Positions 30,644 to 41,304 of a DNA stretch of 41,304 nucleotides are shown here, one piece after another. The stretch lies in contig JBBSVO010000013.1 of assembly GCA_038046805.1 (NCBI GenBank), positions 1 to 41,304 on the forward strand, in the 5' to 3' direction. The position numbers and the translations under genes are program-made. The notes beneath the pieces were generated by a model. That model was not told the origin of the DNA. It worked only from the letters and a program-made list of their open reading frames with translations, and searched no databases. How positions within the stretch are numbered: position 1 is the first letter of the stretch; the number at the start of each line of letters is the position of its first letter. The DNA comes from Candidatus Micrarchaeota archaeon (lineage in GTDB: Archaea; Micrarchaeota; Micrarchaeia; Anstonellales; Bilamarchaeaceae).

Positions 30644-33600
30644 ATGTCAGATGATTCTAAACCAGATGGAAAAGGCGCAACCGCGCTTGATGCGTTTGAT
30701 ACGTTAGATCTTACACCAAAGAAATTAATAACTCAATTAAGGTTTTCAGAATCTGGCGATCTTCTTCGTGTAACTTTTACAAGAGAAGACGGTTCGTCAG
30801 GTGATTTTCAATTCAATTCTTCTGAGATCGTCAAGATGGTAAGCGGAGACACGTCTAAAGTAGCGGATATGCTTGCAAGCGATTATCCAGATATTTTTTC
30901 CCGTGAGTTCGCAACTCGTCTTCTTGATGGAGTTTCCGCTTCTTCTGAATTTCAGGCTCATGCGGCTACGCTTCAGCAAGCAGTTCAGGAACCATTGCAA
31001 AACACAGGACTCGGGACTCAAGACGCGAAACCCGGAACGCAAGACGCGGAACCATCATTAGGCGGCACACAATCCTTTGCGAATTTGGTAAACATGGTTG
31101 CGCCTCCTGGTGCAGCTCACCTTTCTGGAGATTCAGGAATCCCTGATCCGAGCCGATTGGTTGATTTAAGTGCAGTCCCGCGCGGAAGCGGAGCGGATGA
31201 ATCTTCAGCATTTCTTGTTCAACCAGATGGCACGAGCACCCCGCCCAGGGTCGTCCCACCCCCTGTTCCTCCAATCTCTTCGGAAAAAAGGGGAAAACCC
31301 GGTGAAACCGTTGTTCTTCCAGATGCACGTGAAGATGACGAAACCGTTGTTCTTGAAGGGGATGACATTAAGATGGAATCCGAGCCAGTAGCTCCAGTGG
31401 CAGCAGTCGGAGAACATTTAGGGCCGGTACAAACCCGCGGAGATATCTCACTTGTTTCAGATGTTCCGGAACCGTTACAGTTTGCTGGAGAAACCCAACC
31501 TTCTGTAGTTGTTCCAGAAATGGAATCGCCGACACAAGTTATTCGTACAGCACCTGAACCATTGCACCCGGAAGGCCGTGGAGATCGTGATGAGGATGTA
31601 ACTCAGGAAATTCCAGCAGATCAAAAGCCAAAACCCGTAACTCCGGCATTGGTTTTTCCGCCTTCAGAAGGAAGTGAATCTGCACAAATTGATTCATCTG
31701 CGCAAGCATCTGTTGGCGAGCCAACTACACAAGCTGCCTCAGTACAACCCGCTCCACAAGATGCTCCGCAATCTTCTGATGCAACACCTCAAGATGCAAA
31801 ACCAATTCCTGTTGTTAGTATCGGTCGTAGTGGTCATGTTCTCGTACTTCTAAATGATAAATCCGAAGTGATTCTTGGTGGCCGTTCGATTCTTCGCGTT
31901 CTCAACGCAAATAAAAGTGGCGGACGGGATGAAGCAGCACGCATACTGTCAGCAGAATATCCGGGCATTCAATCCGATCTCGCAGGGCTTATTCTTGACA
32001 AGGTGTGCGCCACGGATTTTGTCAGTAATGCGATTGATTTTCTGTCTTCTTCCAGGCAATCTGCATCAGACCAAGCATCTTCTGCACATACAAAACCAAT
32101 CCCTCCTGTTAGCTTAAGTATTCGTTACAATCTTTTAGTGATTGGCCATGATAGTCTTGAAATAGTTCTTGATCGCGCAGTTGTTACTCGCATTCTTCTT
32201 GCAAATAAAAGAGGCGGAAGATCAGAGGCAGAACGTGTATTGGAGCATAGACCTATGGGTATCACATCCGATGATGATAAAATTATTCTTGATCAGTTGT
32301 GTAGTCCAGGTTTTGCCAGTACGTTTAGACAGTTATTATCTTCCCAAAATCAGCCAGCATCAGTCCAACCATCCACACCAACACAACCGCCCGCGCAACC
32401 ATCGGTTTCGGCACCAGCGCAACCAGCAGTAAGCACTCCACAACCGTCGCCTCCGGTTCCAACAAAAGATGAGTTAAATGCAATGTATCTTGCTGCGGCA
32501 GGTAATGGAGAGGTAGATGAAATAAAACGTGCAATCGCACTTGGTGCGGACAAAGAGGCAAAAGATTCCGAGAAGAAAACCGCGTTAATGCGTGCGGTTG
32601 CAGGTCTTCATCTTCCTGCGGTTCAGTGTCTTATCGAAGAGATTAAAGTTAATCTGTATACGAAAGGTGTTTTTGGGTTTACCGTAATTGACAATCTGCA
32701 AGCTCTCGGGGATTCTGATGAAGCAAAAGCTGTTAAGACGTATATCCAAGAAATTCATGATAATGGCATGAGACGGGTTCATGATGCCCTAGTTGCCAAA
32801 TCTGCTCAAGATGCTATCACATCTGTTCTCCCAGCACCAAGAAAAAGTGCCAAACCCTTTCTCTCCAATTTGCCGTGGGGCTGGTTGATCGGTGCAACAG
32901 TGGTCACATCTCTTTCAATCGTGACTGCTGCTTCAAGTTCATTCCGCAACTCTGTTTTTGATTTTGCAAAGGGGGTTGCATCCGCAGCAGGGGTTATTTT
33001 CACAGATGGGATTAAAGAAACCAAAGATGGCGGATTGCGTTTCACAGGATTTTCTTCAGAGAATAACTGGTGGAAGGAAGGAAAGTACAAACTTTCAAAA
33101 GAAGATGCACTCGACGTTGCAAATCAGGTTCTTATTGGGCGTATGGATTATGCAAGGGATATTTTAACGACACGATTTGACATTTCCAATTCGCTCGCAG
33201 ATGATATGCTCGAGGAAATGAATATTTATGATGCTTCACGAATTGCAAAAAAGCCATTCTTACAGTTAGCGCATGGCCGCTATCAATTCACGAATGTATA
33301 CATAAATGATGTTTTTCCGAGTTGTTCGATTTCCAAAGACGGAATGAAAAAAGTTGTCAATGCATATATTGCGCAAGGTGAGGGGGCCGCGCTTGATATC
33401 CTTAACGACGAGCTTTTCGCTACTAATCGCAATGGCAGGTTAGTCAGTTCATGTTCTTCTTGGGCAGGAGTTACTTTCTTTTCCAAGAGTACTCTCACAG
33501 ATATGATGCGCGCAATTCTGTTATCATCAATTGGTCGGCCTTTTATTCATGAAGCTGATATGGCGTTTCAAGCACAAAAAGCTGCGGACGCGGAAGCGAA

Positions 33601-34057
33601 AAAAACCGCAGATGAAGTTGCAAAACTAGTGGAACAAGAGAGATTACGCAAAGAAATGGAAGCGAAAGATGCCGCTGCATTAAAAGCTGCAGAAGAAGCC
33701 AAAAACATGCGGGATCTTTTAGAATCTGCGATTACCCCGCCGGTTTTGAGTTCTGAAGACGAAGAGCATATTCGTTCTGTTGCAGCTGAAAAGCGGGCAG
33801 CAGAAGAAAAGGCGGCAAAACAAGAAGCAGAACGTGCGGAAAAACAAAAACAAGAACAAGCGAAAAAAGCTGCCCAAGAATCTGCAGCAAAAAAGAAAGC
33901 AGAAGATGATCGCAAATCACGTGAAGCTGCTGCAAAGCGCGCGATGTCAAAAGGAGCAGGTGCAGAAACCAGGCGCGTCTTAAGTGACTGCGAACGTAGC
34001 TGCAAATATGGTGGCGGTACTTCGATGCAACGGGCATGTATCAGCGGTTGCCGATAA
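30644..34057 (+). CDS. Large membrane-anchored protein: repeated ~80 aa module, Pro-rich linkers, ankyrin repeats, one TM helix, A/K/E-rich coiled coil, C-terminal 4-Cys motif
   Basis: 1137 aa; GAGGTG SD; ankyrin-like AAAGNGEVDEIKRAIALGADKEAKDSEKKTALMRAV; TM WGWLIGATVVTSLSIVTAA; ends CERSC...CISGCR. Confidence 0.8.
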   Translation: MSDDSKPDGKGATALDAFDTLDLTPKKLITQLRFSESGDLLRVTFTREDGSSGDFQFNSSEIVKMVSGDTSKVADMLASDYPDIFSREFATRLLDGVSASSEFQAHAATLQQAVQEPLQNTGLGTQDAKPGTQDAEPSLGGTQSFANLVNMVAPPGAAHLSGDSGIPDPSRLVDLSAVPRGSGADESSAFLVQPDGTSTPPRVVPPPVPPISSEKRGKPGETVVLPDAREDDETVVLEGDDIKMESEPVAPVAAVGEHLGPVQTRGDISLVSDVPEPLQFAGETQPSVVVPEMESPTQVIRTAPEPLHPEGRGDRDEDVTQEIPADQKPKPVTPALVFPPSEGSESAQIDSSAQASVGEPTTQAASVQPAPQDAPQSSDATPQDAKPIPVVSIGRSGHVLVLLNDKSEVILGGRSILRVLNANKSGGRDEAARILSAEYPGIQSDLAGLILDKVCATDFVSNAIDFLSSSRQSASDQASSAHTKPIPPVSLSIRYNLLVIGHDSLEIVLDRAVVTRILLANKRGGRSEAERVLEHRPMGITSDDDKIILDQLCSPGFASTFRQLLSSQNQPASVQPSTPTQPPAQPSVSAPAQPAVSTPQPSPPVPTKDELNAMYLAAAGNGEVDEIKRAIALGADKEAKDSEKKTALMRAVAGLHLPAVQCLIEEIKVNLYTKGVFGFTVIDNLQALGDSDEAKAVKTYIQEIHDNGMRRVHDALVAKSAQDAITSVLPAPRKSAKPFLSNLPWGWLIGATVVTSLSIVTAASSSFRNSVFDFAKGVASAAGVIFTDGIKETKDGGLRFTGFSSENNWWKEGKYKLSKEDALDVANQVLIGRMDYARDILTTRFDISNSLADDMLEEMNIYDASRIAKKPFLQLAHGRYQFTNVYINDVFPSCSISKDGMKKVVNAYIAQGEGAALDILNDELFATNRNGRLVSSCSSWAGVTFFSKSTLTDMMRAILLSSIGRPFIHEADMAFQAQKAADAEAKKTADEVAKLVEQERLRKEMEAKDAAALKAAEEAKNMRDLLESAITPPVLSSEDEEHIRSVAAEKRAAEEKAAKQEAERAEKQKQEQAKKAAQESAAKKKAEDDRKSREAAAKRAMSKGAGAETRRVLSDCERSCKYGGGTSMQRACISGCR

Positions 34058-34140
34058 TTCTCACTCTTGTCCAAACACTTCTATTTTTATTATTTCCCAG
34101 CGTTGCCATTTTGCATATTTGCGCATGGTAATGTGATCTT

Positions 34141-34794
34141 ATGGCTTCAAAATCAAAAGGCAAGGGAAAAACAACCGTAATGAAGGGAAAAAAAACTATT
34201 TCAAAGCCGCAACGAAGCGTAAAAGCAGGGATTCCAAAGATTCCAAAAAATCAAAAGACTCTGGAAGAACGCGAAGAGTCAGTGGAAATGCAGGAGCCGC
34301 TTAATCTTTCGGAACCCTCCGAAATCCAGGGCCTTTCCCAGACACCGTTTGAGCAGGCGCCACAAGTCTCAACCCCCATTCTTGACAAGGCTCTTGAGCA
34401 GCAGAGGGTTGAGGAAGAAAAGGCCCGTAAAATTGCAGAATTAGATCATACACTTTCAGAGCTTTCAGAAATGGAAGAAAGCATGATAATTATAACTCTT
34501 CAGAATACAAGTTCGGAAGATTGTGCGGAACTAAAACAACGAATTGTAGAAATAAAATCCGCCCCGGAAGATGAGCGAACGATCCCATTGCATGACTTGT
34601 TCATGGTGGAACGGGCATTTGAAGTCGTTGAAGGAAAAGTCAAACTTGAACTTCCAGCGTCTGAGACGGTTTCAGACTCCGGACAAAAACCATCCTTGTT
34701 TGATGGAATGAAACTGGCAGTTTCCGGTTTGTTCTCCTCCTTGTTCAAACCAAAGGGGAAATCAGATAATATCGAGCCCATCGCACCAGAATAA
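34141..34794 (+). CDS. Hypothetical protein (Lys-rich N-terminus, central coiled coil, amphipathic C-terminal helix)
   Basis: 217 aa ORF; GTGAT SD-like motif; LFDGMKLAVSGLFSSLFKPK. Confidence 0.7.
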   Translation: MASKSKGKGKTTVMKGKKTISKPQRSVKAGIPKIPKNQKTLEEREESVEMQEPLNLSEPSEIQGLSQTPFEQAPQVSTPILDKALEQQRVEEEKARKIAELDHTLSELSEMEESMIIITLQNTSSEDCAELKQRIVEIKSAPEDERTIPLHDLFMVERAFEVVEGKVKLELPASETVSDSGQKPSLFDGMKLAVSGLFSSLFKPKGKSDNIEPIAPE

Positions 34795-34825
34795 TCTGAT
34801 TCGCCCTGGTTCTGTTTCACAACAC

Positions 34826-34842
34826 TACCTTTTTATTTTTTA
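34826..34842 (+). promoter_or_regulatory. Putative promoter motif, copy 1
   Basis: TACCTTTTTATTTTTTA, 36 nt before ATG 34862; identical copy at 35878. Confidence 0.6.
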
Positions 34843-34861
34843 CCACTGATTAATATAAGTT

Positions 34862-35851
34862 ATGAACCGCTTAATAAGAACCGCTTTATGCGCTTCCGCT
34901 TTTGTCATAGCCTCTAATATAATTAGTCCATCTCAGGTTCACGCAAAACCGTTTCCACCAGGAGTTTCGTTTTTTCTCCCGCTTGCCGAAATCCCGCTTT
35001 CATCTCAGCAAAAGCTTCGAGCATTAGAAGAGAAGATAAATGCAATTGCTGAAGGCAGACTTAAGCTTAAGTTAAAAGATGATGTGCAATTACAGCTTCC
35101 GGATATTCCAACTCTGCGCGGGGTAATCATAAATAGAATACCTGCAGGTCCTCTAAAAACTAACTTATTTGCTCTATTGAGTGATGTTAACCAGGCAGGA
35201 GATGCCAATCCCGTGGGCGTTGCATTTGTTTCAGCATATCTTTTTTATGCAAATAATCTAAACCCATTTCTTGCAGCTTATTGGTCAGACCAGAATAATT
35301 TTGTTGAAGAAACATCTGAAGGAAGAGTAACAGGACCTTCCTACGATAAATCTGGAAACTTGGCAGGTTTTGTATGGTCTACTCAAGCGCCACCACAAAC
35401 ACCATCTTCCGAGCCAAAGCTAACAGACTCTGGGCGTTTGCCGGATGCTCAGAATCCTCAAGGTGAAACAAGGGGAAAAAGCCTGGCTGACAAGTTTTTT
35501 GATGCCCAATCTGCAAAAAAACCCGTAGTTAAGAAAGTGGCTAAGGAGGGAACAGTCATATTTCGAGGAGAACAAATTAAAGTAAACCAGGATTATTTAC
35601 CCATAGATGAAAAAGGTCTTGAATCGGTTAAAACTAAACTCTTCTGGCTGATTGAACTCAATCCTGGTGATCTGCCCGAGTATATACGTGTGCTTTCATT
35701 AGACGAACTTCGAGTATTCAATTCGGTAATCTCCACTCTGATCAGTAACCATAGCAATCCTATTCTCGAAAAAAGTGATGTTCGTAGAATGCTTCGAGAG
35801 AGGTTTGAGGCCCTGCAGGGAAACGAACCTACAATTCCGTTCGAAAAATAA
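34862..35851 (+). CDS. Secreted hypothetical protein, paralogous to the N-terminus of the downstream giant protein
   Basis: Signal peptide MNRLIRTALCASAFVIASNIISPSQVHA. Confidence 0.75.
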   Translation: MNRLIRTALCASAFVIASNIISPSQVHAKPFPPGVSFFLPLAEIPLSSQQKLRALEEKINAIAEGRLKLKLKDDVQLQLPDIPTLRGVIINRIPAGPLKTNLFALLSDVNQAGDANPVGVAFVSAYLFYANNLNPFLAAYWSDQNNFVEETSEGRVTGPSYDKSGNLAGFVWSTQAPPQTPSSEPKLTDSGRLPDAQNPQGETRGKSLADKFFDAQSAKKPVVKKVAKEGTVIFRGEQIKVNQDYLPIDEKGLESVKTKLFWLIELNPGDLPEYIRVLSLDELRVFNSVISTLISNHSNPILEKSDVRRMLRERFEALQGNEPTIPFEK

Positions 35852-35877
35852 TCCTTTTTGTTCAGTATTCAGGGACT

Positions 35878-35894
35878 TACCTTTTTATTTTTTA
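35878..35894 (+). promoter_or_regulatory. Putative promoter motif, copy 2
   Basis: TACCTTTTTATTTTTTA, 35 nt before ATG 35913. Confidence 0.6.
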
Positions 35895-35912
35895 TCCCAC
35901 GTTATACTCCCA

Positions 35913-38900
35913 ATGCCTTCTTACAGATTCAGAAGAATAGCCGTAGCCATAGCTACGGCGTTAATATTCAATTCCGTCCAGCCACCTGTCCTAGCAGAGG
36001 GTTTAAATACCTTAGGCGGTAGATTATATAATATTGGTGGTTTAATGAGGCCAGCAGTGGTTGGTAGACTCGCAGGAATTCTCCCGATTGGTCAAGTTCC
36101 GACAGAAGCCGAGCAGAGGCTCCGCGAGATTGAGGATACTCTAAAAAAGCTGGCAGACGGGACGCTTAAGCTGAAGGTAAAGGAAGGTTTTAAAGACAAG
36201 TTTGAAAGTCTTCCGTCACAAAGACTAAACAACCTACTTGGTATTATGCCTGACAATCAAACAATCCAAAACATAAAAAAACTAATCTCTGAAAATAACC
36301 GCGCCGGAATCGTATTCGGTTTTGCCTATTGTTTTCTAGTATCACATATGCGAAACGCCAATCAAAACGCACGTAACTTCGCTTTTGATTACTCTAATAT
36401 GGAAAATTATGAAGTTGTGACAAGCCAGCTTTCGGCTGTTCCTTCTCCAATCCCATCCCCAATTGAATATCTCCCTGCAATGCCCACACGAGAAGAACGA
36501 CCTCCAGTGGTAGAATCAACCACCACAAGTGATGAGCGCGTTGAAGAGGCGAAAAAAGAACTTAAGAGTAAGATCTCTCAAATCAAAACTATTCTTTCCG
36601 GAAGAGAACTTCTTAGCGATGATACTTCAAAACAGCTTAAGACATGGGAAGATCGAATAGGGAAGATTCCGGGTAAGGGCGCAGATGCTGAGAACCAAAT
36701 CCGTCGTTTATATCTGGAAATCCCGGAAGTAAGTGAGGTTCGAAGCCTTGCTAATATCTCAGCAAAAGTAATTGCAGCTGCAAATCTTGCTTTTTACGAT
36801 GAGACGGGCACGAATATAATGCTTGATAAACTTGGGAAGCAGTTTGATACGCTGGCAGCATCTTATACAGCTTTTAAGTCATCCACTAACTTCCTGACTG
36901 GTGTAATACTCAATTCCATGAAAAAGGACCATCTGTTTTTTGAATTTTCCAAAGTCAGCGGGCTAGATACGAATTCACTTCCTGGCATTGCATTTGCTAT
37001 AAAATCCTATGTAACTGGCAGGGCCGAGGTTCGTTTTGCATTCCAAAACGCGTTGAAATCCGCATCAAAAGACGAAGCAATTTCTGGTCTTCAACAGGCT
37101 ATTTCAAGCTGCGTGGCTAGGTTCGGTTCAATCGCTCCGTTGGACGAACTTGTAGATTTACGGGCTTTGGGTGCATCAAAGAACGATACCGTGGAGTATC
37201 TCGTAGGATGGATAAATAATAATTACGGAGACATTTCATATGGGCGTAACGCGTTCTTTAGCATCGGCGGTGCGCAGTTAAGCTCGCTTTCCGAATCTGA
37301 CAGTGAAACTGCTAACGCGGCCTGGGGCTCAAATCCGCTTGTCGGGGAAGGCGCGGTTACAGGTGCATATGCAGAGCGCCTTGATGAATTTTACGGAAAA
37401 GCAACGATGATTGATTATTTTTATCTTGGAAAAGCCGTAACTAAAATAATTCCTTCGGGTCTCGGAAGCCCTGTGGTTTATACAGCGCTTCTCGGCACAA
37501 CTATTTCCATAGATCAATTTGACCCGTATCTGTTGCCAACGTTTGTCAATGTCCTTTTACCGGAAATGGTTCGCAATTCCTATGACTCCGACGAACTGGA
37601 GCAGCTTCTTATTTCGTTGGATGGGTTCTTTTACAATATGAGAAATTCTCTCGGCGAATTCAATGTTGTTCCAAAAGAAGTCCGTGAGAACATGCAGGGT
37701 ATAATGAAGGACGCGGCAAAGGAAATCTCAGACACACGTTTAAACATCACCAAAGGAAATTTAATGGAGGAATGGCAAAAGCCGGCTGGACTCACCGGGC
37801 ATCGCGACCCAAATTACTATCTTACAAGACCACAGTTTGAAGGCTATGAAACAAAATGGTTCCCTTCACAAGGTCCGGCAAAGCCGCATCTCCTGGACCT
37901 CGACCCCGGACTGACCGGCGTAGCATACGATCCGTTTGGTTTGACTCTTCAGATGCCAATGCGGGCTAGAGGTGCCTCCAAGCTCTACGGATATCTAGAT
38001 AGCCTTCTTAATCCGCAATATGCGTTTGCAGAGTTCAGAGAAATCCCAGCGTCTTATCGTTTGCGTGTGTCATCTTTCCAGGACGTGGTGTCCTCATTGA
38101 ATAAAATGCAGGGGCGCATGCTGGCATATCTTTCAAGCCACCCCTATTCCGACGAGGTTCTTGAAGCGTTTGCACAATTCACTGCGTATGGACGGACGCC
38201 TTTACCAGATGCCGGCACCACAGATAAATTTGAGCATGTTGGTGCGCTTGGAGGCGGAGGTGTTGCCACGCCAGAAGGTGCAGCTCAGGTTCGCGGGAGG
38301 ATGGAAAAAATCGGAACCACCACTAGATATGAAGTTACGGAAAGCGCTTCAAAGGTTCCTGCCCCTCTTATTGGCAATAATATTCATTCCATGAATATGC
38401 GATTTCAGGGAAGGACCGAGCAGGATATGAAGAACTGGGAGGAAAACCAGCAGGCTTATACTGCACTTGAGCTCATGAAAAGAGGCGGTGCGAATGCGAT
38501 AATGACCTGGGAATACCAGTCGGTTGTTCCAGAAAAGTCAACGGATTACGAAAAAGAAAGATATGAAGTCGCATTGCATGTTTTGGAAGAAGATGGAACA
38601 GTAACTCGTTTTGCCCTGAAGTACGATGATTATGTGAAAATCCTCAATTATTCGTTCGGAGAAAGAGATGCGCAAAAATATATTGCAAGTGCCAAATACC
38701 TCACGGAAATGAATGATTTGAACGGTGCCGCGGTTGGCTTTACGCTTGATGACGTCGGCGTGCTCGCCCTCAGAAATCACATGTATCGCTATTTTCAGGA
38801 TAAAAAAATTGCAACACAAAATCTGGAGGTTGTCGGAGTCCAGCTCGGAAAATCTGCCGGGAAATTATTTGCAACCTATAAAGATACCATTCTAATGCCA

Positions 38901-40427
38901 CGTGTGTTTGCCGGGGAACAGCCAACAGAGGAGACCGTGCTTGCAAAAGGAGTTGAGGCAAAATGGGTGAAGCTTCCGCCAACCCAAAACGACTGGGGTG
39001 CGCTCGCAAAGGCATTCGTGTCAAAGTCTGATATAGAAACATGGGATGGAATCTATGGGACGTATGGGGTACGAGGAATCTATGAGTCACCTGCTTCTGA
39101 CAAAGTCCAGGATGCATGGGGCGGATCGGCGTATCGCAGAAGTGTTGTTCCACTCTTTAGAATGGTGCAACTCTCTTCCGAAGCGGATCAATACGCGCAA
39201 AGAGTTACGAATTATCTTGTAGACGCATACCACTGGGAAAAAGAAAAGGCAAACAAATATGGGTGGCTGGTTGCCGCTCAATACCTTCGTTCAGCTGTTG
39301 ATTCGGTTGTTGGCGGCGAGTCAAAGGACGAAAAAGCAAGAAACTTTGGAAGACTGGTGTTCCTCGGATGGACCGCTGCGCACAGCGGACAGCTTGGACT
39401 TGAAAAATTGCCTGGCTGGGCACGAATTGACGAGGAAATGAAAAATTTTGAACGTGAGCTCGTCTTAATGCCATATAATTCCGAGGCTATAGTGACTAAT
39501 TACGTGGAAAGAATAAATCAGCTTGCCAAGTCAGACCTTTACAGGTTAGCATTAAACTATGGTTATGATAATCGTGTTCTTTTGATGAATTATGTTGAGA
39601 ACTATGATGATTACTATGCAGGAAGAGGAGAGAATCTTGCTTTCCTGACAAATTCGCTTTATTTCGGAGCGACGTGGCAGATATACTCCTTCATGAATAC
39701 ATATGCACAAACGAATTCCTTCCTTGCTTATGGTCTTGCGACCATTGGTTACGTTGATGTTTTCAGGGCAATGGCCGGCCCGGTTTTCACAAAGGATGAA
39801 GTGGTTGGTGCAGCTGGCCAGTTGCTGGTAAAGATAAAGCTCGGGGAAGTTCCAATCATAATCGGTGGCATGGGTATGAAAGTAGATATGAAACACGTGG
39901 AACAAACACGTTTACAACTGGTTCTCAGTTCCCAACTTGTTGATGCTGCGATTACACACAGGACAATAACTTCGGTTTATGTCAAGTTTGATTGGACAAA
40001 GGGCATCGCATATCTTATTGATAAGACGGAATATGAAGATATGTACGGCCAGGCAGGAGTTACTGTGGAAAAACAAGACCTGAAGAATTATAGCTCGGCA
40101 TTTGATGCTGCTGTTAAGGTCGGTCAGGTAAGCGTGGCAAGATTTTCAAAATATGCTACCGGAGCTGGCGAGGAAGTGGTTACCTCAACTTCTACAGAGC
40201 AAACATCTGGTACCGGAGGAGTAGTTTATACTCTTGGCACCCCCGTAGGAGACTTTTCCATAGGTGCTTATGGTGGCAGAGGCGTTTATGGATATCTTTA
40301 TCCGTTTGGGGCGTCTGTTGCTTCGGATCTTCAACGTGTCATTACGCCAAATTGGCTTAGCATAGATCCAAAGCTTTATGAGAGATGGTTTGGCGGAGCA
40401 TTTGTGACTTATACCACAACATTCTGA
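35913..40427 (+). CDS. Giant secreted protein (~1504 aa) with a helical N-terminal half and a beta-strand-rich, beta-barrel-like C-terminal half
   Basis: Start moved to ATG 35913, which gives the signal peptide MPSYRFRRIAVAIATALIFNSVQPPVLA; ends WFGGAFVTYTTTF. Confidence 0.8.
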   Translation: MPSYRFRRIAVAIATALIFNSVQPPVLAEGLNTLGGRLYNIGGLMRPAVVGRLAGILPIGQVPTEAEQRLREIEDTLKKLADGTLKLKVKEGFKDKFESLPSQRLNNLLGIMPDNQTIQNIKKLISENNRAGIVFGFAYCFLVSHMRNANQNARNFAFDYSNMENYEVVTSQLSAVPSPIPSPIEYLPAMPTREERPPVVESTTTSDERVEEAKKELKSKISQIKTILSGRELLSDDTSKQLKTWEDRIGKIPGKGADAENQIRRLYLEIPEVSEVRSLANISAKVIAAANLAFYDETGTNIMLDKLGKQFDTLAASYTAFKSSTNFLTGVILNSMKKDHLFFEFSKVSGLDTNSLPGIAFAIKSYVTGRAEVRFAFQNALKSASKDEAISGLQQAISSCVARFGSIAPLDELVDLRALGASKNDTVEYLVGWINNNYGDISYGRNAFFSIGGAQLSSLSESDSETANAAWGSNPLVGEGAVTGAYAERLDEFYGKATMIDYFYLGKAVTKIIPSGLGSPVVYTALLGTTISIDQFDPYLLPTFVNVLLPEMVRNSYDSDELEQLLISLDGFFYNMRNSLGEFNVVPKEVRENMQGIMKDAAKEISDTRLNITKGNLMEEWQKPAGLTGHRDPNYYLTRPQFEGYETKWFPSQGPAKPHLLDLDPGLTGVAYDPFGLTLQMPMRARGASKLYGYLDSLLNPQYAFAEFREIPASYRLRVSSFQDVVSSLNKMQGRMLAYLSSHPYSDEVLEAFAQFTAYGRTPLPDAGTTDKFEHVGALGGGGVATPEGAAQVRGRMEKIGTTTRYEVTESASKVPAPLIGNNIHSMNMRFQGRTEQDMKNWEENQQAYTALELMKRGGANAIMTWEYQSVVPEKSTDYEKERYEVALHVLEEDGTVTRFALKYDDYVKILNYSFGERDAQKYIASAKYLTEMNDLNGAAVGFTLDDVGVLALRNHMYRYFQDKKIATQNLEVVGVQLGKSAGKLFATYKDTILMPRVFAGEQPTEETVLAKGVEAKWVKLPPTQNDWGALAKAFVSKSDIETWDGIYGTYGVRGIYESPASDKVQDAWGGSAYRRSVVPLFRMVQLSSEADQYAQRVTNYLVDAYHWEKEKANKYGWLVAAQYLRSAVDSVVGGESKDEKARNFGRLVFLGWTAAHSGQLGLEKLPGWARIDEEMKNFERELVLMPYNSEAIVTNYVERINQLAKSDLYRLALNYGYDNRVLLMNYVENYDDYYAGRGENLAFLTNSLYFGATWQIYSFMNTYAQTNSFLAYGLATIGYVDVFRAMAGPVFTKDEVVGAAGQLLVKIKLGEVPIIIGGMGMKVDMKHVEQTRLQLVLSSQLVDAAITHRTITSVYVKFDWTKGIAYLIDKTEYEDMYGQAGVTVEKQDLKNYSSAFDAAVKVGQVSVARFSKYATGAGEEVVTSTSTEQTSGTGGVVYTLGTPVGDFSIGAYGGRGVYGYLYPFGASVASDLQRVITPNWLSIDPKLYERWFGGAFVTYTTTF

Positions 40428-40460
40428 TCGTTTTTTGTTAATATTTATTTTGTTAAATAT

Positions 40461-40836
40461 ATGACTATCATCAAGTCGGTAAGAGTACCTGGCTTTTTGA
40501 GCCAGGGTGAATTGCCGACCGACTTGATGAGCGTTCTTCAACTGCGAAGCAGTTGGAGAGACGGCGAACTCTGTTCGCTGGATTTTCGAATGGGCAGCAT
40601 ACCCCGCGCTTGCGCGGGGTTCCGAGCATCAGCGAGGACTGCCCTTCGAAAAATCTGATATGAAACCACGAAAATAATGCAGTCATCTTGAGCACCAAGT
40701 CTCTGAAATCCGCACTCGTGGTTTGATATGTAGTGAGACGCGAAAGTTCATGATTGTCCGACGGCTCGGACAATATGCATCTTTTTGCTTTAAGCAAACA
40801 GATTGTCGCAAAACTTTCGTGGATCGCTATAGTTAT
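40461..40836 (+). ncRNA. Candidate large structured non-coding RNA or palindromic element of unknown family
   Basis: More than 12 helices, a terminal closing stem (40461-40468 / 40829-40836), G-U wobbles favouring the + strand, and AT-rich TATA-like sequence upstream. Confidence 0.55.
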
Positions 40837-41222
40837 TTTCCCCTCATTTCCAGTTTTGGTGGCATAAATGGTGACGCCATATTAAGTGCCCGTGAGATAA
40901 ATACTCCATTTAATCCCGCAGTCATATTTATTGCATTGAGCAACGGACCCATAATTTGAGGTAGAATCGACTTGTTTTTCTTCCACCCGTCCATCACGCT
41001 TTTTATTATAGTTAATTTTTCCCCGACTGCCGCGGTGCCGAATATTTTCAGATATCCTAACTTTGGATGATAAGTTGTTTCGTAGGTGAATTTAAATTTC
41101 AATTCATCTCCTGAGAACCCAACATCATTTATTCTTATATTCACTTCTATATTCTGCGGAATTCCGATACCTTCTTTCTTTGCTTCGGTTCCTTCAAGGA
41201 GTATTGCGCGTATTTCAGTCAT
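40833..41222 (-). CDS. Conserved-looking archaeal hypothetical protein (possible SecB-like fold)
   Basis: ATG 41222 after GGTGAT; four beta-strand-like segments followed by helices ending ISRALNMASPFMPP. Confidence 0.65.
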   Translation of the reverse strand: MTEIRAILLEGTEAKKEGIGIPQNIEVNIRINDVGFSGDELKFKFTYETTYHPKLGYLKIFGTAAVGEKLTIIKSVMDGWKKNKSILPQIMGPLLNAINMTAGLNGVFISRALNMASPFMPPKLEMRGK

Positions 41223-41304
41223 ACATATCACCCAGTATCCTTCACCTGTCACAGTTAAAAATCTCACTTTTCTATTCTTTCCTTCTCACATTCTTCCCTC
41301 GTTC

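What the first reader, a model, noticed from the sequence alone, without database searches (positions are those of the whole stretch)
40461..40836. Candidate novel ~375 nt closed multibranch structured RNA
Seen: most of the intergenic region pairs. Closing stem 40461-68/40829-36. Perfect 13 bp 40468-80/40518-30 enclosing CCTGGCT/AGCCAGG. CAACTGC-GAA-GCAGTTG (40539-55). GCGAAC/GTTCGC (40564-78). TTTTCGAA.GGGCAG / CTGCCC.TTCGAAAA enclosing ACCCCGCG-CTTG-CGCGGGGT. AAACCACGA/TCGTGGTTT (40663-71/40716-24). TAGTGA..GCGAAAGTT / AACTTTCGT..TCGCTA enclosing ATTGTCCGA/TCGGACAAT and TTTGCTT/AAGCAAA. Non-Watson-Crick positions are repeatedly G-T on the + strand, as expected for selection on a single + strand. 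An AT-rich TATA-like tract lies just upstream. I see no RNase P, SRP, tRNA or rRNA signature. Inference: an undescribed ncRNA, or a non-autonomous palindromic mobile element.
Basis: partly seen in the sequence, partly recalled or inferred. Interest (0 to 1): 0.8.

Follow-up and report, generated by a model that had tools for sequence, protein, structure and literature searches.

The report
Nest of mobile hairpin DNA repeats
The heavily folded 375-base stretch is not one new RNA gene but a pile-up of at least four small hairpin-forming repeat elements that have landed next to and inside one another between two genes of a tiny archaeon, and a near-identical relative lacks the whole pile.

Summary
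The hairpins are real. The + strand folds to -169.1 kcal/mol, z -11.2, and no Rfam family matches.

The region is not one unit. Its parts recur separately in this 1.2-Mb archaeal genome and in relatives:
- an A..C element (40466-40659), 4 copies;
- a two-hairpin module B (about 40535-40582) nested inside it;
- a two-hairpin D-E element (40660-40829), 8-10 copies;
- a 57-nt double hairpin (40749-40805) nested in the loop of E.

Evidence that these parts move:
- One contig from a public RNA library joins 40465 directly to 40830, so it lacks the whole 364-nt block.
- D-E copies of the sister species sit at loci that are empty in this genome.
- One relative (G034) carries a burst of near-identical A..C copies.
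- Both families are patchy across the phylum, 7 and 5 of 151 genomes.

Stems show compensatory changes. The element's + strand is the more stable in 27 of 29 copies, so structure matters on one single strand.

No mobilising enzyme was identified. Transcription is not shown.

This scan has already reported similar double-hairpin elements in Micrarchaeota on other DNA. The A..C and D-E families and the missing-block form are what this report adds.

The parts
35775..40427 (+). Upstream gene, 1550-aa ORF with no Pfam match. Its stop lies 38 nt before the block.
40428..40465 (.). Together with 40830-40832 it forms the 41-nt gap between the two convergent stop codons in the form without the block.
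40466..40829 (+). The whole 364-nt block, skipped in one RNA-library contig. The ends read TA..TA, so the cut can be placed 0-2 nt further right.
   Evidence: table 5 and record 9
40466..40532 (+). Module A: a long hairpin with a conserved internal loop (AGAGTAC / GGTGAAT) and a variable tip. It is the 5' half of the A..C element.
40535..40582 (+). Module B: a 48-nt double hairpin nested between A and C (boundaries +/-2 nt). It is absent from 5 of the 8 aligned A..C copies, and G005 and G039 carry other inserts. B-like copies lie elsewhere in the genome.
40583..40659 (+). Module C: a Y-shaped three-way junction ending in AAAAATCTGAT. It is the 3' half of the A..C element.
40660..40728 (+). Module D: a hairpin with the conserved foot (T)ATAGCAAACCACG / CGTGGTTTGCTAT and a loop that differs in every copy of this genome.
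40729..40829 (+). Module E: a hairpin with tandem G.A pairs (GAGAC / GGATC) and the loop TTCGCAAAAC. It is the 3' half of the D-E element and ends in GCTA(TA).
40749..40805 (+). A 57-nt double-hairpin mini-element nested in the loop of E. It is present here and in the C4 copy and absent from 8 of 11 aligned D-E copies. The C7 copy holds a different double hairpin at another loop position.
   Evidence: its first hairpin also matches C3:135108-135130 near the IS200 gene
40833..41267 (-). Downstream convergent gene, 144 aa, with relatives in 30 of 31 genomes of the family. Its stop codon lies 1-3 nt from the block.

Best explanation
The region is a cluster of four small, gene-less, hairpin-forming repeat elements, set side by side and inside one another in what was a 41-nt spacer between two convergent genes of a small archaeal genome. 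Earlier notes of this scan call the genome Micrarchaeota; I only confirmed an archaeal 16S match.

An A..C element (about 150 nt without inserts) and a D-E element (about 115 nt) lie head to tail. A 48-nt double hairpin (B) sits at the A/C junction. A 57-nt double hairpin sits in the loop of E.

Shown: each part is a separate dispersed family; inserts are present or absent among paralogous copies; copies occupy different loci in the sister species; the whole block is absent in one near-identical sequence.

Inferred: the elements are copied and pasted as DNA, probably through a single-stranded form of the element's + strand. The block's landing site is a TA inside a short palindrome. Non-coding spacers and the loops or junctions of elements already present are tolerated landing places, which builds such piles. 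The enzyme that moves them is unknown.
For: 1. No second copy of the whole unit exists. blastn of 40440-40850 against the own genome gives one full-length match (itself) and only partial matches elsewhere. Iterated nhmmer gives A 4, C 5 and D-E about 8 places. Model R1 finds 8 full D-E copies at 100 bits or more plus 2 weaker ones. Model R2 finds 4 full C copies.

2. Nesting. A and C are adjacent in 5 of the 8 aligned copies. They are separated by B in the window and by other double hairpins in G005 and G039. The loop of E is uninterrupted in 8 of 11 copies, holds the 57-nt insert in 2, and holds a different insert at another position in 1.

3. Presence and absence. Contig record 9 of run X13 (556 nt, 1 mismatch) lies on 40062-40465 and then 40830-40980, skipping 364 nt with TA at both ends. 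Two D-E copies of the sister species G001 lie in intergenic spacers whose flanking genes are 89-97% identical at protein level to G000 loci that lack the element.

4. Burst. G034 has at least 9 near-identical solo A-x-C copies with unrelated 3' flanks, most at contig ends. Five more copies run identically past the element's end into a contig break.

5. Patchy, multi-copy distribution. D-E is found in 7 of 151 genomes of the phylum sample, with 10-20 matches in four of them (both strands of one copy can each count). C is found in 5 of 151. By blastn, 11 of 41 relatives including the own genome have a match.

6. Structure is kept on one strand. 22 of 51 pairs (A..C) and 9 of 31 pairs (D-E) have compensatory double changes. 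The element's + strand folds better in 27 of 29 copies.

7. A B-like copy lies in frame inside the C-terminal domain of the ATP-dependent DNA ligase gene, where 126 residues span 90 profile positions. Palindromic repeat elements in other organisms do the same.
Against: - The only form without the block comes from an RNA library, as one contig at depth 2.7.
- No transposase is linked. Y1_Tnp was not found in G171, G169 or G144, which carry 12-20 D-E matches. No C module lies within 1.5 kb of the Y1_Tnp gene in 9 further genomes.
- A..C has no terminal inverted repeats, so it is not a classical MITE.
- Within this genome the D loops share no similarity while the stems are about 90% alike. Simple neutral decay of recent copies does not predict this. 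It suggests selection on each copy or an unknown mechanism.
- Copy numbers here are low (4 and 8-10).
- Motifs that I recall as RNA-typical would fit a function as RNA: G(CUUG)C and C(UUCG)G tetraloops, an AGUA/GAA loop-E-like internal loop, and tandem G.A pairs.
- Copies are related, so counts over copies are not independent.
Confidence: 0.75

Rival explanations
1. The modules are above all functional RNA elements, for example 3'-UTR stabilisers or terminators, or small RNAs, that are transcribed from the + strand. Their dispersal is secondary. The pile in this window would act as a structured 3' end for the 1550-aa gene's mRNA.
For: The + strand is favoured in 27 of 29 copies. Compensatory pairs are present. 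Single-stranded linkers and internal loops are conserved in sequence (invariant GAA in A, GAGAC/GGATC in E). Loop sequences are of the CUUG and UUCG type with matching closing pairs (the motif names are recalled). All 4 A..C copies and 6 of 8 D-E copies in this genome are co-oriented with an adjacent gene (my reading of the coordinates). REPs of bacteria are argued to act as RNA for the same reasons (PMC3733652, passages read).
Against: No read evidence of transcription: the one RNA run has no contig inside the block. T-runs directly after the upstream stop codon (40431-40436) would, by recalled knowledge of archaeal termination, stop transcription before the block. Copies are not syntenic between sister species. 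Two D-E copies lie antisense to both neighbours. ssDNA hairpins would give the same strand asymmetry.
Confidence: 0.15
2. The whole 364-nt block is one RNA-level unit, an intron-like insert removed from a read-through transcript. The first reader's closing stem would be its splice helix.
For: I recall that ARMAN-type archaea are reported to have a splicing endonuclease of broad specificity; I read no paper on this.
Against: The two junctions lie 2 bp apart inside a continuous 8-bp helix with no bulges, so there is no bulge-helix-bulge motif. That geometry is what a TA target duplication gives. The block lies between two convergent stop codons, where no spliced product is needed. Its parts are independent repeats. 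RNA libraries carry DNA, and a block-free strain explains the contig equally well.
Confidence: 0.05
3. A sub-hypothesis on mechanism: A..C is tied to IS200-type (Y1 HUH) transposition. Either it is a leader or left-end module mobilised as single-stranded DNA by TnpA, or its 3' end (T/C)TGAT is the sequence after which the IS inserts.
For: In G001, A..C lies on the same strand about 125 nt upstream of a Y1_Tnp ORF and about 25 nt from the IS left-end hairpin, which is shared with this genome's IS200. G034 has both the A..C burst and 14 Y1_Tnp matches, 6 of them C-terminal halves at contig ends, alongside 5 A..C copies that run on into contig ends. Y1_Tnp is present in 5 of the 6 genomes with A..C by blastn, against 8 of the 35 without. 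This count is descriptive only, because the genomes are kin and the groups were defined afterwards. One-strand structure fits ssDNA transposition.
Against: No C module lies within 1.5 kb of Y1_Tnp in the loci of G005, G006, G010, G012, G018, G020, G023, G026 and G038, nor at this genome's own IS200. G039 and G144 have A..C or C copies but no Y1_Tnp was found (both are 85-89% complete). The A and C hairpins do not resemble the IS left-end hairpin. The link in G034 is not assembled.
Confidence: 0.2

Closest known systems
REP / BIME / REPIN repeats of bacteria
   Same: Short hairpin repeats lying mostly between genes, often after convergent genes. They form mosaics of several units, show G-T pairs on one strand, occur occasionally inside genes, and vary strongly in number between relatives (PMC3733652, passages read).
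   Different: The units here are larger (50-150 nt), branched (Y-shaped C) and nested inside one another's loops. No RAYT-type gene flanked by them was found, and Y1_Tnp was not found in the genomes richest in D-E. The host is an archaeon, whereas the passages I read list only bacterial phyla.
Rickettsia palindromic elements (RPE)
   Same: Hairpin repeats that also land in frame inside essential genes without breaking them. Here a B-like copy sits in the DNA ligase C-terminal domain. No transposase is known. The properties of RPE are recalled, apart from the mention in PMC3733652.
   Different: There is no sequence relation. The elements here also insert into each other, and in this genome they are mostly intergenic.
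TA-targeting MITEs such as Correia/NEMIS elements of Neisseria and Stowaway-type MITEs (recalled)
   Same: Non-autonomous and about 100-160 nt long. A TA stands at both ends: the block's junction has TA..TA, 8 of 11 G034 A..C copies are followed by A after ...CTGAT, which gives TA, and D-E sits between T and A in most copies.
   Different: A..C has no terminal inverted repeats beyond TATC. D-E has only a 6-11-nt terminal palindrome that is also the foot of its hairpins. No IS630/mariner-type partner was looked for or found.
IS200/IS605 ends and palindrome-associated transposable elements (PATEs)
   Same: Strand-specific subterminal hairpins. One A..C copy lies directly upstream of a Y1 transposase gene.
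   Different: The association does not hold in 9 other genomes. The hairpins differ from the IS's own left-end hairpin.
Earlier reports of this scan on double-hairpin mini-elements in Micrarchaeota (e1-3241492, e1-3241493, e1-4360021, e1-5242110)
   Same: The same kind of object and partly the same family: the 57-nt insert in E matches DNA beside this genome's IS200. Nesting into hairpin loops was also noted there.
   Different: The A..C and D-E elements are larger host elements that those notes, as far as shown to me, do not describe. The block-free form in a public run is new.

Membership tests
Known structured RNA families (Rfam 15: RNase P, SRP and others) | Match to the family's covariance model at its gathering score | tested here: not met
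   There are 0 matches in the whole window and only E 2-3.6 sub-threshold matches at the edge of the region. The genome's SRP RNA lies elsewhere, at C2:59775-60029. RNase P RNA was not found in this 86%-complete genome.
A single novel ncRNA gene | Homologues keep the whole unit, with the same order and ends | tested here: not met
   Only parts recur, at separate loci, in the own genome and in 10 of 40 relatives.
A single novel ncRNA gene | A discrete transcript | tested here: inconclusive
   The one RNA run holds no contig inside the block, only the joined form. The data are contigs, not reads.
REP/BIME (RAYT-linked) | A Y1 (RAYT) gene flanked by the repeats | tested here: not met
   Y1_Tnp was not found in G171, G169 or G144. 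One adjacency was found in G001 and none in 9 other genomes.
REP/BIME (RAYT-linked) | A 20-40-bp palindrome with a GTAG or CGTC tag at one end | tested here: inconclusive
   GTAG stands at the D/E junction (TGTAGTGAG) in 7 of 11 copies, but the units are much longer and branched.
MITE | Terminal inverted repeats | tested here: not met
   The ends of A..C share only TATC. D-E has TATAGC...GCTATA, extended to 11 nt in G171 and G169.
MITE | Target-site duplication | tested here: inconclusive
   TA stands at both ends of the block, with 2 nt that fit either side. TA follows 8 of 11 G034 copies but only 2 of 8 copies in alignment A1.
MITE | An autonomous partner with the same ends | tested here: inconclusive
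   None was seen. Five G034 copies run on into unassembled DNA.
Archaeal bulge-helix-bulge intron | Two 3-nt bulges separated by a 4-bp helix at the junctions | tested here: not met
   The junctions lie 2 bp apart in an unbroken 8-bp helix.
Mobile repeat in the broad sense | Presence and absence at orthologous or allelic sites, and copy-number bursts | tested here: met

The most novel reading that the evidence does not exclude
The hairpin modules may be RNA-level entities. In this reading they are transcribed, protein-bound structured RNAs, with a loop-E-like AGUA/GAA loop, CUUG and UUCG tetraloops and tandem G.A pairs. They would spread through, or be removed as, RNA. The block-free contig in the RNA library would then reflect precise excision of a 364-nt composite from a transcript. 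That would amount to a new kind of self-removing insert, and it would explain why the same elements are tolerated inside essential genes.
Probability: 0.07. Interest if true: 0.8.

Novelty: new member of a known kind. Interest (0 to 1): 0.4.

Why it matters
The result removes a false candidate for a large new ncRNA. It shows how nested palindromic repeats can mimic a closed multibranch RNA, with a very strong folding z-score and apparent covariation.

It also adds two larger families (A..C and D-E) to the hairpin elements this scan has been finding in Micrarchaeota. My literature searches found no published description of such elements in that group.

It gives a first presence/absence case at a single site: a TA inside a short palindrome. 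These very small genomes tolerate and exchange such elements without an obvious transposase, so finding what moves them could reveal a new mobilisation route in DPANN archaea.

Tried and rejected
- Divergent RNase P or SRP: rejected. There is no Rfam match and the SRP RNA lies elsewhere.
- tRNA-like units of about 75 nt, suggested by the sizes of the blastn pieces: rejected, because the folds are long hairpins and Rfam found no tRNA in the window.
- C/D-box, H/ACA or K-turn guide RNA for D: rejected by inspection. There are no box C/D motifs, no ACA tail and no 3-nt bulge beside G.A pairs.
- D loops as guides: the 11 variable loops have no match of 16 nt or more elsewhere in the own genome, only chance 13-15-mers and one 24-nt stretch at 87.5% identity, E 1.1. 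In other genomes the loops of D are short and alike within a genome.
- A conserved protein partner: the flanking genes differ at every copy. The two A..C copies that flank an AAA_14/DUF4143 ATPase gene are only about 77% alike.
- Orthologous locus of the window in held relatives: none is close enough. The 144-aa neighbour's best match is 45% identical, and 33% in the sister species. L009 is not orthologous to the window.
- A metagenome scan with a 29-nt stretch of the upstream ORF gave 0 matches.
- The joints 40748>40806 and 40525>40641 in DNA runs X8-X10 are cross-mapping paralogues. Their loose ends read as the C6:4272 and C6:25690 copies. They are not alleles of this site.
- RNA run X13 has no cover inside the block, and I draw no conclusion from that.
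- Hammerhead-like core in C ('CUGAU...GAAAC'): not supported by Rfam.

Full report
**1.

Region 40455-40845 folds on the + strand to -169.1 kcal/mol. Dinucleotide shuffles give -109.3 +/- 5.4 (z -11.16; 0 of 100 shuffles as good). The - strand gives -149.4 kcal/mol, z -7.47.

Rfam 15 has no match at gathering score anywhere in the window. A permissive scan of 40200-41100 gave three chance-level matches (E 2-3.6), all at or before the left edge.

The window is a whole contig (C13) of a 1.2-Mb genome in 16 contigs, 86% complete. The genome has an archaeal 16S match and an SRP RNA on another contig. No RNase P RNA match was found. Earlier notes of this scan call the organism Micrarchaeota. I did not test that label.

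The neighbours are a 1550-aa ORF without a Pfam match that ends at 40427, and a convergent 144-aa ORF that ends at 40833.

**2. It is not one unit**

blastn of 40440-40850 against the own genome returns the region itself plus only partial matches at other loci. The same holds in 40 relatives, where 11 of 41 genomes, counting the own genome, have a match at E <= 0.001.

Sorting the matches gives separate families:
- **A..C** (40466-40659 here). A is a long hairpin and C is a Y-shaped three-way junction ending in AAAAATCTGAT. There are four copies: this one, C2:110315-110463, C2:112021-112167 and C6:25690-25807 (5'-truncated). There is also a partial C on C8.
- **B** (about 40535-40582), a 48-nt double hairpin. 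B-like copies lie at C3:99246, C6:230256, C2:39138(-) and C1:35681.
- **D-E** (40660-40829), two hairpins. A covariance model finds eight full copies at 100 bits or more, and two weaker ones.
- **A 57-nt double hairpin** (40749-40805).

A and C also travel together in G001, G005, G034, G039 and G020.

**3. Nesting**

In the alignment of eight A..C copies, A and C abut in five. In the window B lies between them. G039 has a different double hairpin at the same junction and another inside an arm of C. G005 has one just after TTTTCGAATG.

In the alignment of eleven D-E copies, the loop of E (TTCGCAAAAC) is intact in eight. It carries the 57-nt insert in the window and in the C4 copy. In the C7 copy it carries an unrelated double hairpin at another position.

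The window and C4 copies are 86% identical across the insert. So a D-E that already carried the insert was itself copied.

The first hairpin of the insert also matches C3:135108-135130, beside the genome's only Y1 transposase gene. This agrees with earlier notes e1-3241492 and e1-3241493.

**4. Evidence of mobility**

(a) Eighteen public runs from six studies of groundwater or aquifers hold the stretch. I laid four of them, all as contigs. A 556-nt contig of the one RNA-library run (X13, depth 2.7, one mismatch) lies on 40062-40465 and continues at 40830-40980. It skips 364 nt with TA at both ends and 2 nt that fit either side.

The form without the block leaves 41 nt between the two stop codons and reads ...GACTAGTT...

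The other two joints in that output belong to paralogous copies. Their loose ends read as the C6 copies, so they are not alleles of this site.

(b) The flanking genes of three D-E copies of the sister species G001 have clear counterparts in G000, 69-97% protein identity by tblastx. In two of these loci the alignment shows the element present in G001 and absent in G000: L045 against C3 at about 135.5 kb, and L044 against C7 at about 26.9 kb. The third locus could not be aligned on its left side.

(c) G034 holds at least nine near-identical A-x-C copies with unrelated 3' flanks, most of them breaking contigs. Five more are identical for 19 nt beyond the element's end, up to a contig end.

(d) Across a sample of 151 genomes of the phylum, the D-E model matches in 7. 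In six of those it gives 2-20 matches each, and both strands of one copy can each count. The C model matches in 5. The D-E foot motif occurs 51 and 37 times in G171 and G169, against 1 and 1 for the reversed control. It occurs as single hairpins, doublets and wider pairs.

(e) A B-like copy lies in frame in the C-terminal domain of the ATP-dependent DNA ligase gene, where 126 residues cover 90 profile positions.

**5. Structure is under constraint on one strand**

RNAalifold finds 22 of 51 pairs in A..C and 9 of 31 pairs in D-E with compensatory double changes. Folding each of 29 copies on both strands, the element's + strand is the more stable in 27: A..C 11 of 13, D-E 11 of 11, B 5 of 5. The copies are related, so these are not independent trials.

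Internal loops and linkers are conserved in sequence: AGAGTAC/GGTGAAT in A, and GAGAC/GGATC in E, which gives tandem G.A pairs. Many loops are CTTG or TTCG with fitting closing pairs. I recall these as typical RNA motifs, but no tool here tested that. Single-stranded DNA would explain the strand bias equally well.

**6. What remains unexplained**

In this genome and its sister species, the loop of D has no similarity between copies (24-38 nt) while the rest is about 90% alike. These loops match nothing else in the genome. In G171, G169 and G144 the loops are short and alike within a genome. The simplest reading is old copies with constrained stems, but that implies selection on each copy.

No moving enzyme was found:
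- Y1_Tnp is present in 13 of 41 relatives but was not found in G171, G169 or G144.
- In G001, A..C lies about 125 nt upstream of a Y1_Tnp ORF on the same strand.
- G034 combines the A..C burst with 14 Y1_Tnp matches.
- No C module lies near Y1_Tnp in nine other genomes or at this genome's own IS200.

**7. RNA excision is unlikely**

The two junctions lie 2 bp apart in a continuous 8-bp helix without bulges. That is not the bulge-helix-bulge geometry of archaeal splicing; it is the geometry of a 2-nt target duplication. I could not lay the DNA runs of that study, so this rests on geometry and parsimony.

**8. Comparison and novelty**

The behaviour matches REP/BIME, RPE and TA-targeting MITEs, but the defining features of each were not met or were inconclusive (see the membership test).

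Searches for Micrarchaeota with 'palindromic' and 'repeat' (12 papers, 10 listed), for Micrarchaeota with 'MITE' (1 paper), and for archaeal MITE hairpins (18 papers, 12 listed) showed no description of such elements in this group. I judged this from titles and abstract starts. For the REP comparison I read passages of PMC3733652.

This scan has reported related double-hairpin elements in Micrarchaeota several times. The present window adds the larger A..C and D-E families and a block-free form in a public run.

**Verdict**

This is a real and striking structure, but it is a nest of mobile hairpin repeats, not a new 375-nt RNA.

Noticed in passing
G000 C6:230256-230303 (locus L054:357-404): A B-like double hairpin lies in frame inside the C-terminal domain of the ATP-dependent DNA ligase gene. 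The Pfam match spans 126 residues for 90 profile positions, so the gene carries an insertion of about 36 residues.
   Followed up: partly
G000 C2:110315-112167 (loci L005, L006): Two complete A..C copies in the same orientation flank a 406-aa AAA_14/DUF4143 ATPase gene. It could be chance or a composite unit.
   Followed up: no
G000 C2:59552-59667(-) next to C2:59775-60029(-): A D-E copy lies about 110 nt downstream of the SRP RNA gene on the same strand.
   Followed up: no
G001 C97:3843-4517 (locus L091:1501-2175, - strand): An A..C element, itself carrying several extra double hairpins, lies directly upstream of an IS200-type Y1 transposase ORF. The IS left-end hairpin (GTAGCGG...CCGCTAC) is shared with this genome's IS200 at C3:134483-134830, which has no A..C.
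   Followed up: partly
G034, many contig ends (loci L096-L109): Five contigs end 19 nt after an A..C copy with identical sequence, and six contigs start or end inside the C-terminal half of an identical Y1 transposase gene. This suggests an unassembled multi-copy IS that may include A..C.
   Followed up: partly
whole genome G000: No match to the archaeal RNase P RNA model (RF00373) was found in this 86%-complete genome.
   Followed up: no
window 30644-40427: Two very large ORFs (1137 aa, with a weak ankyrin match, and 1550 aa, with no Pfam match) and two smaller unknown ORFs form a co-directional cluster just upstream of the block.
   Followed up: no
G171 and G169 genomes: The foot motif TATAGCAA(A/T)CC occurs about 51 and 37 times per genome, as single hairpins, doublets and pairs 80-500 nt apart. 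This is a REP-like family with many forms, and no Y1 transposase was found in either genome.
   Followed up: partly
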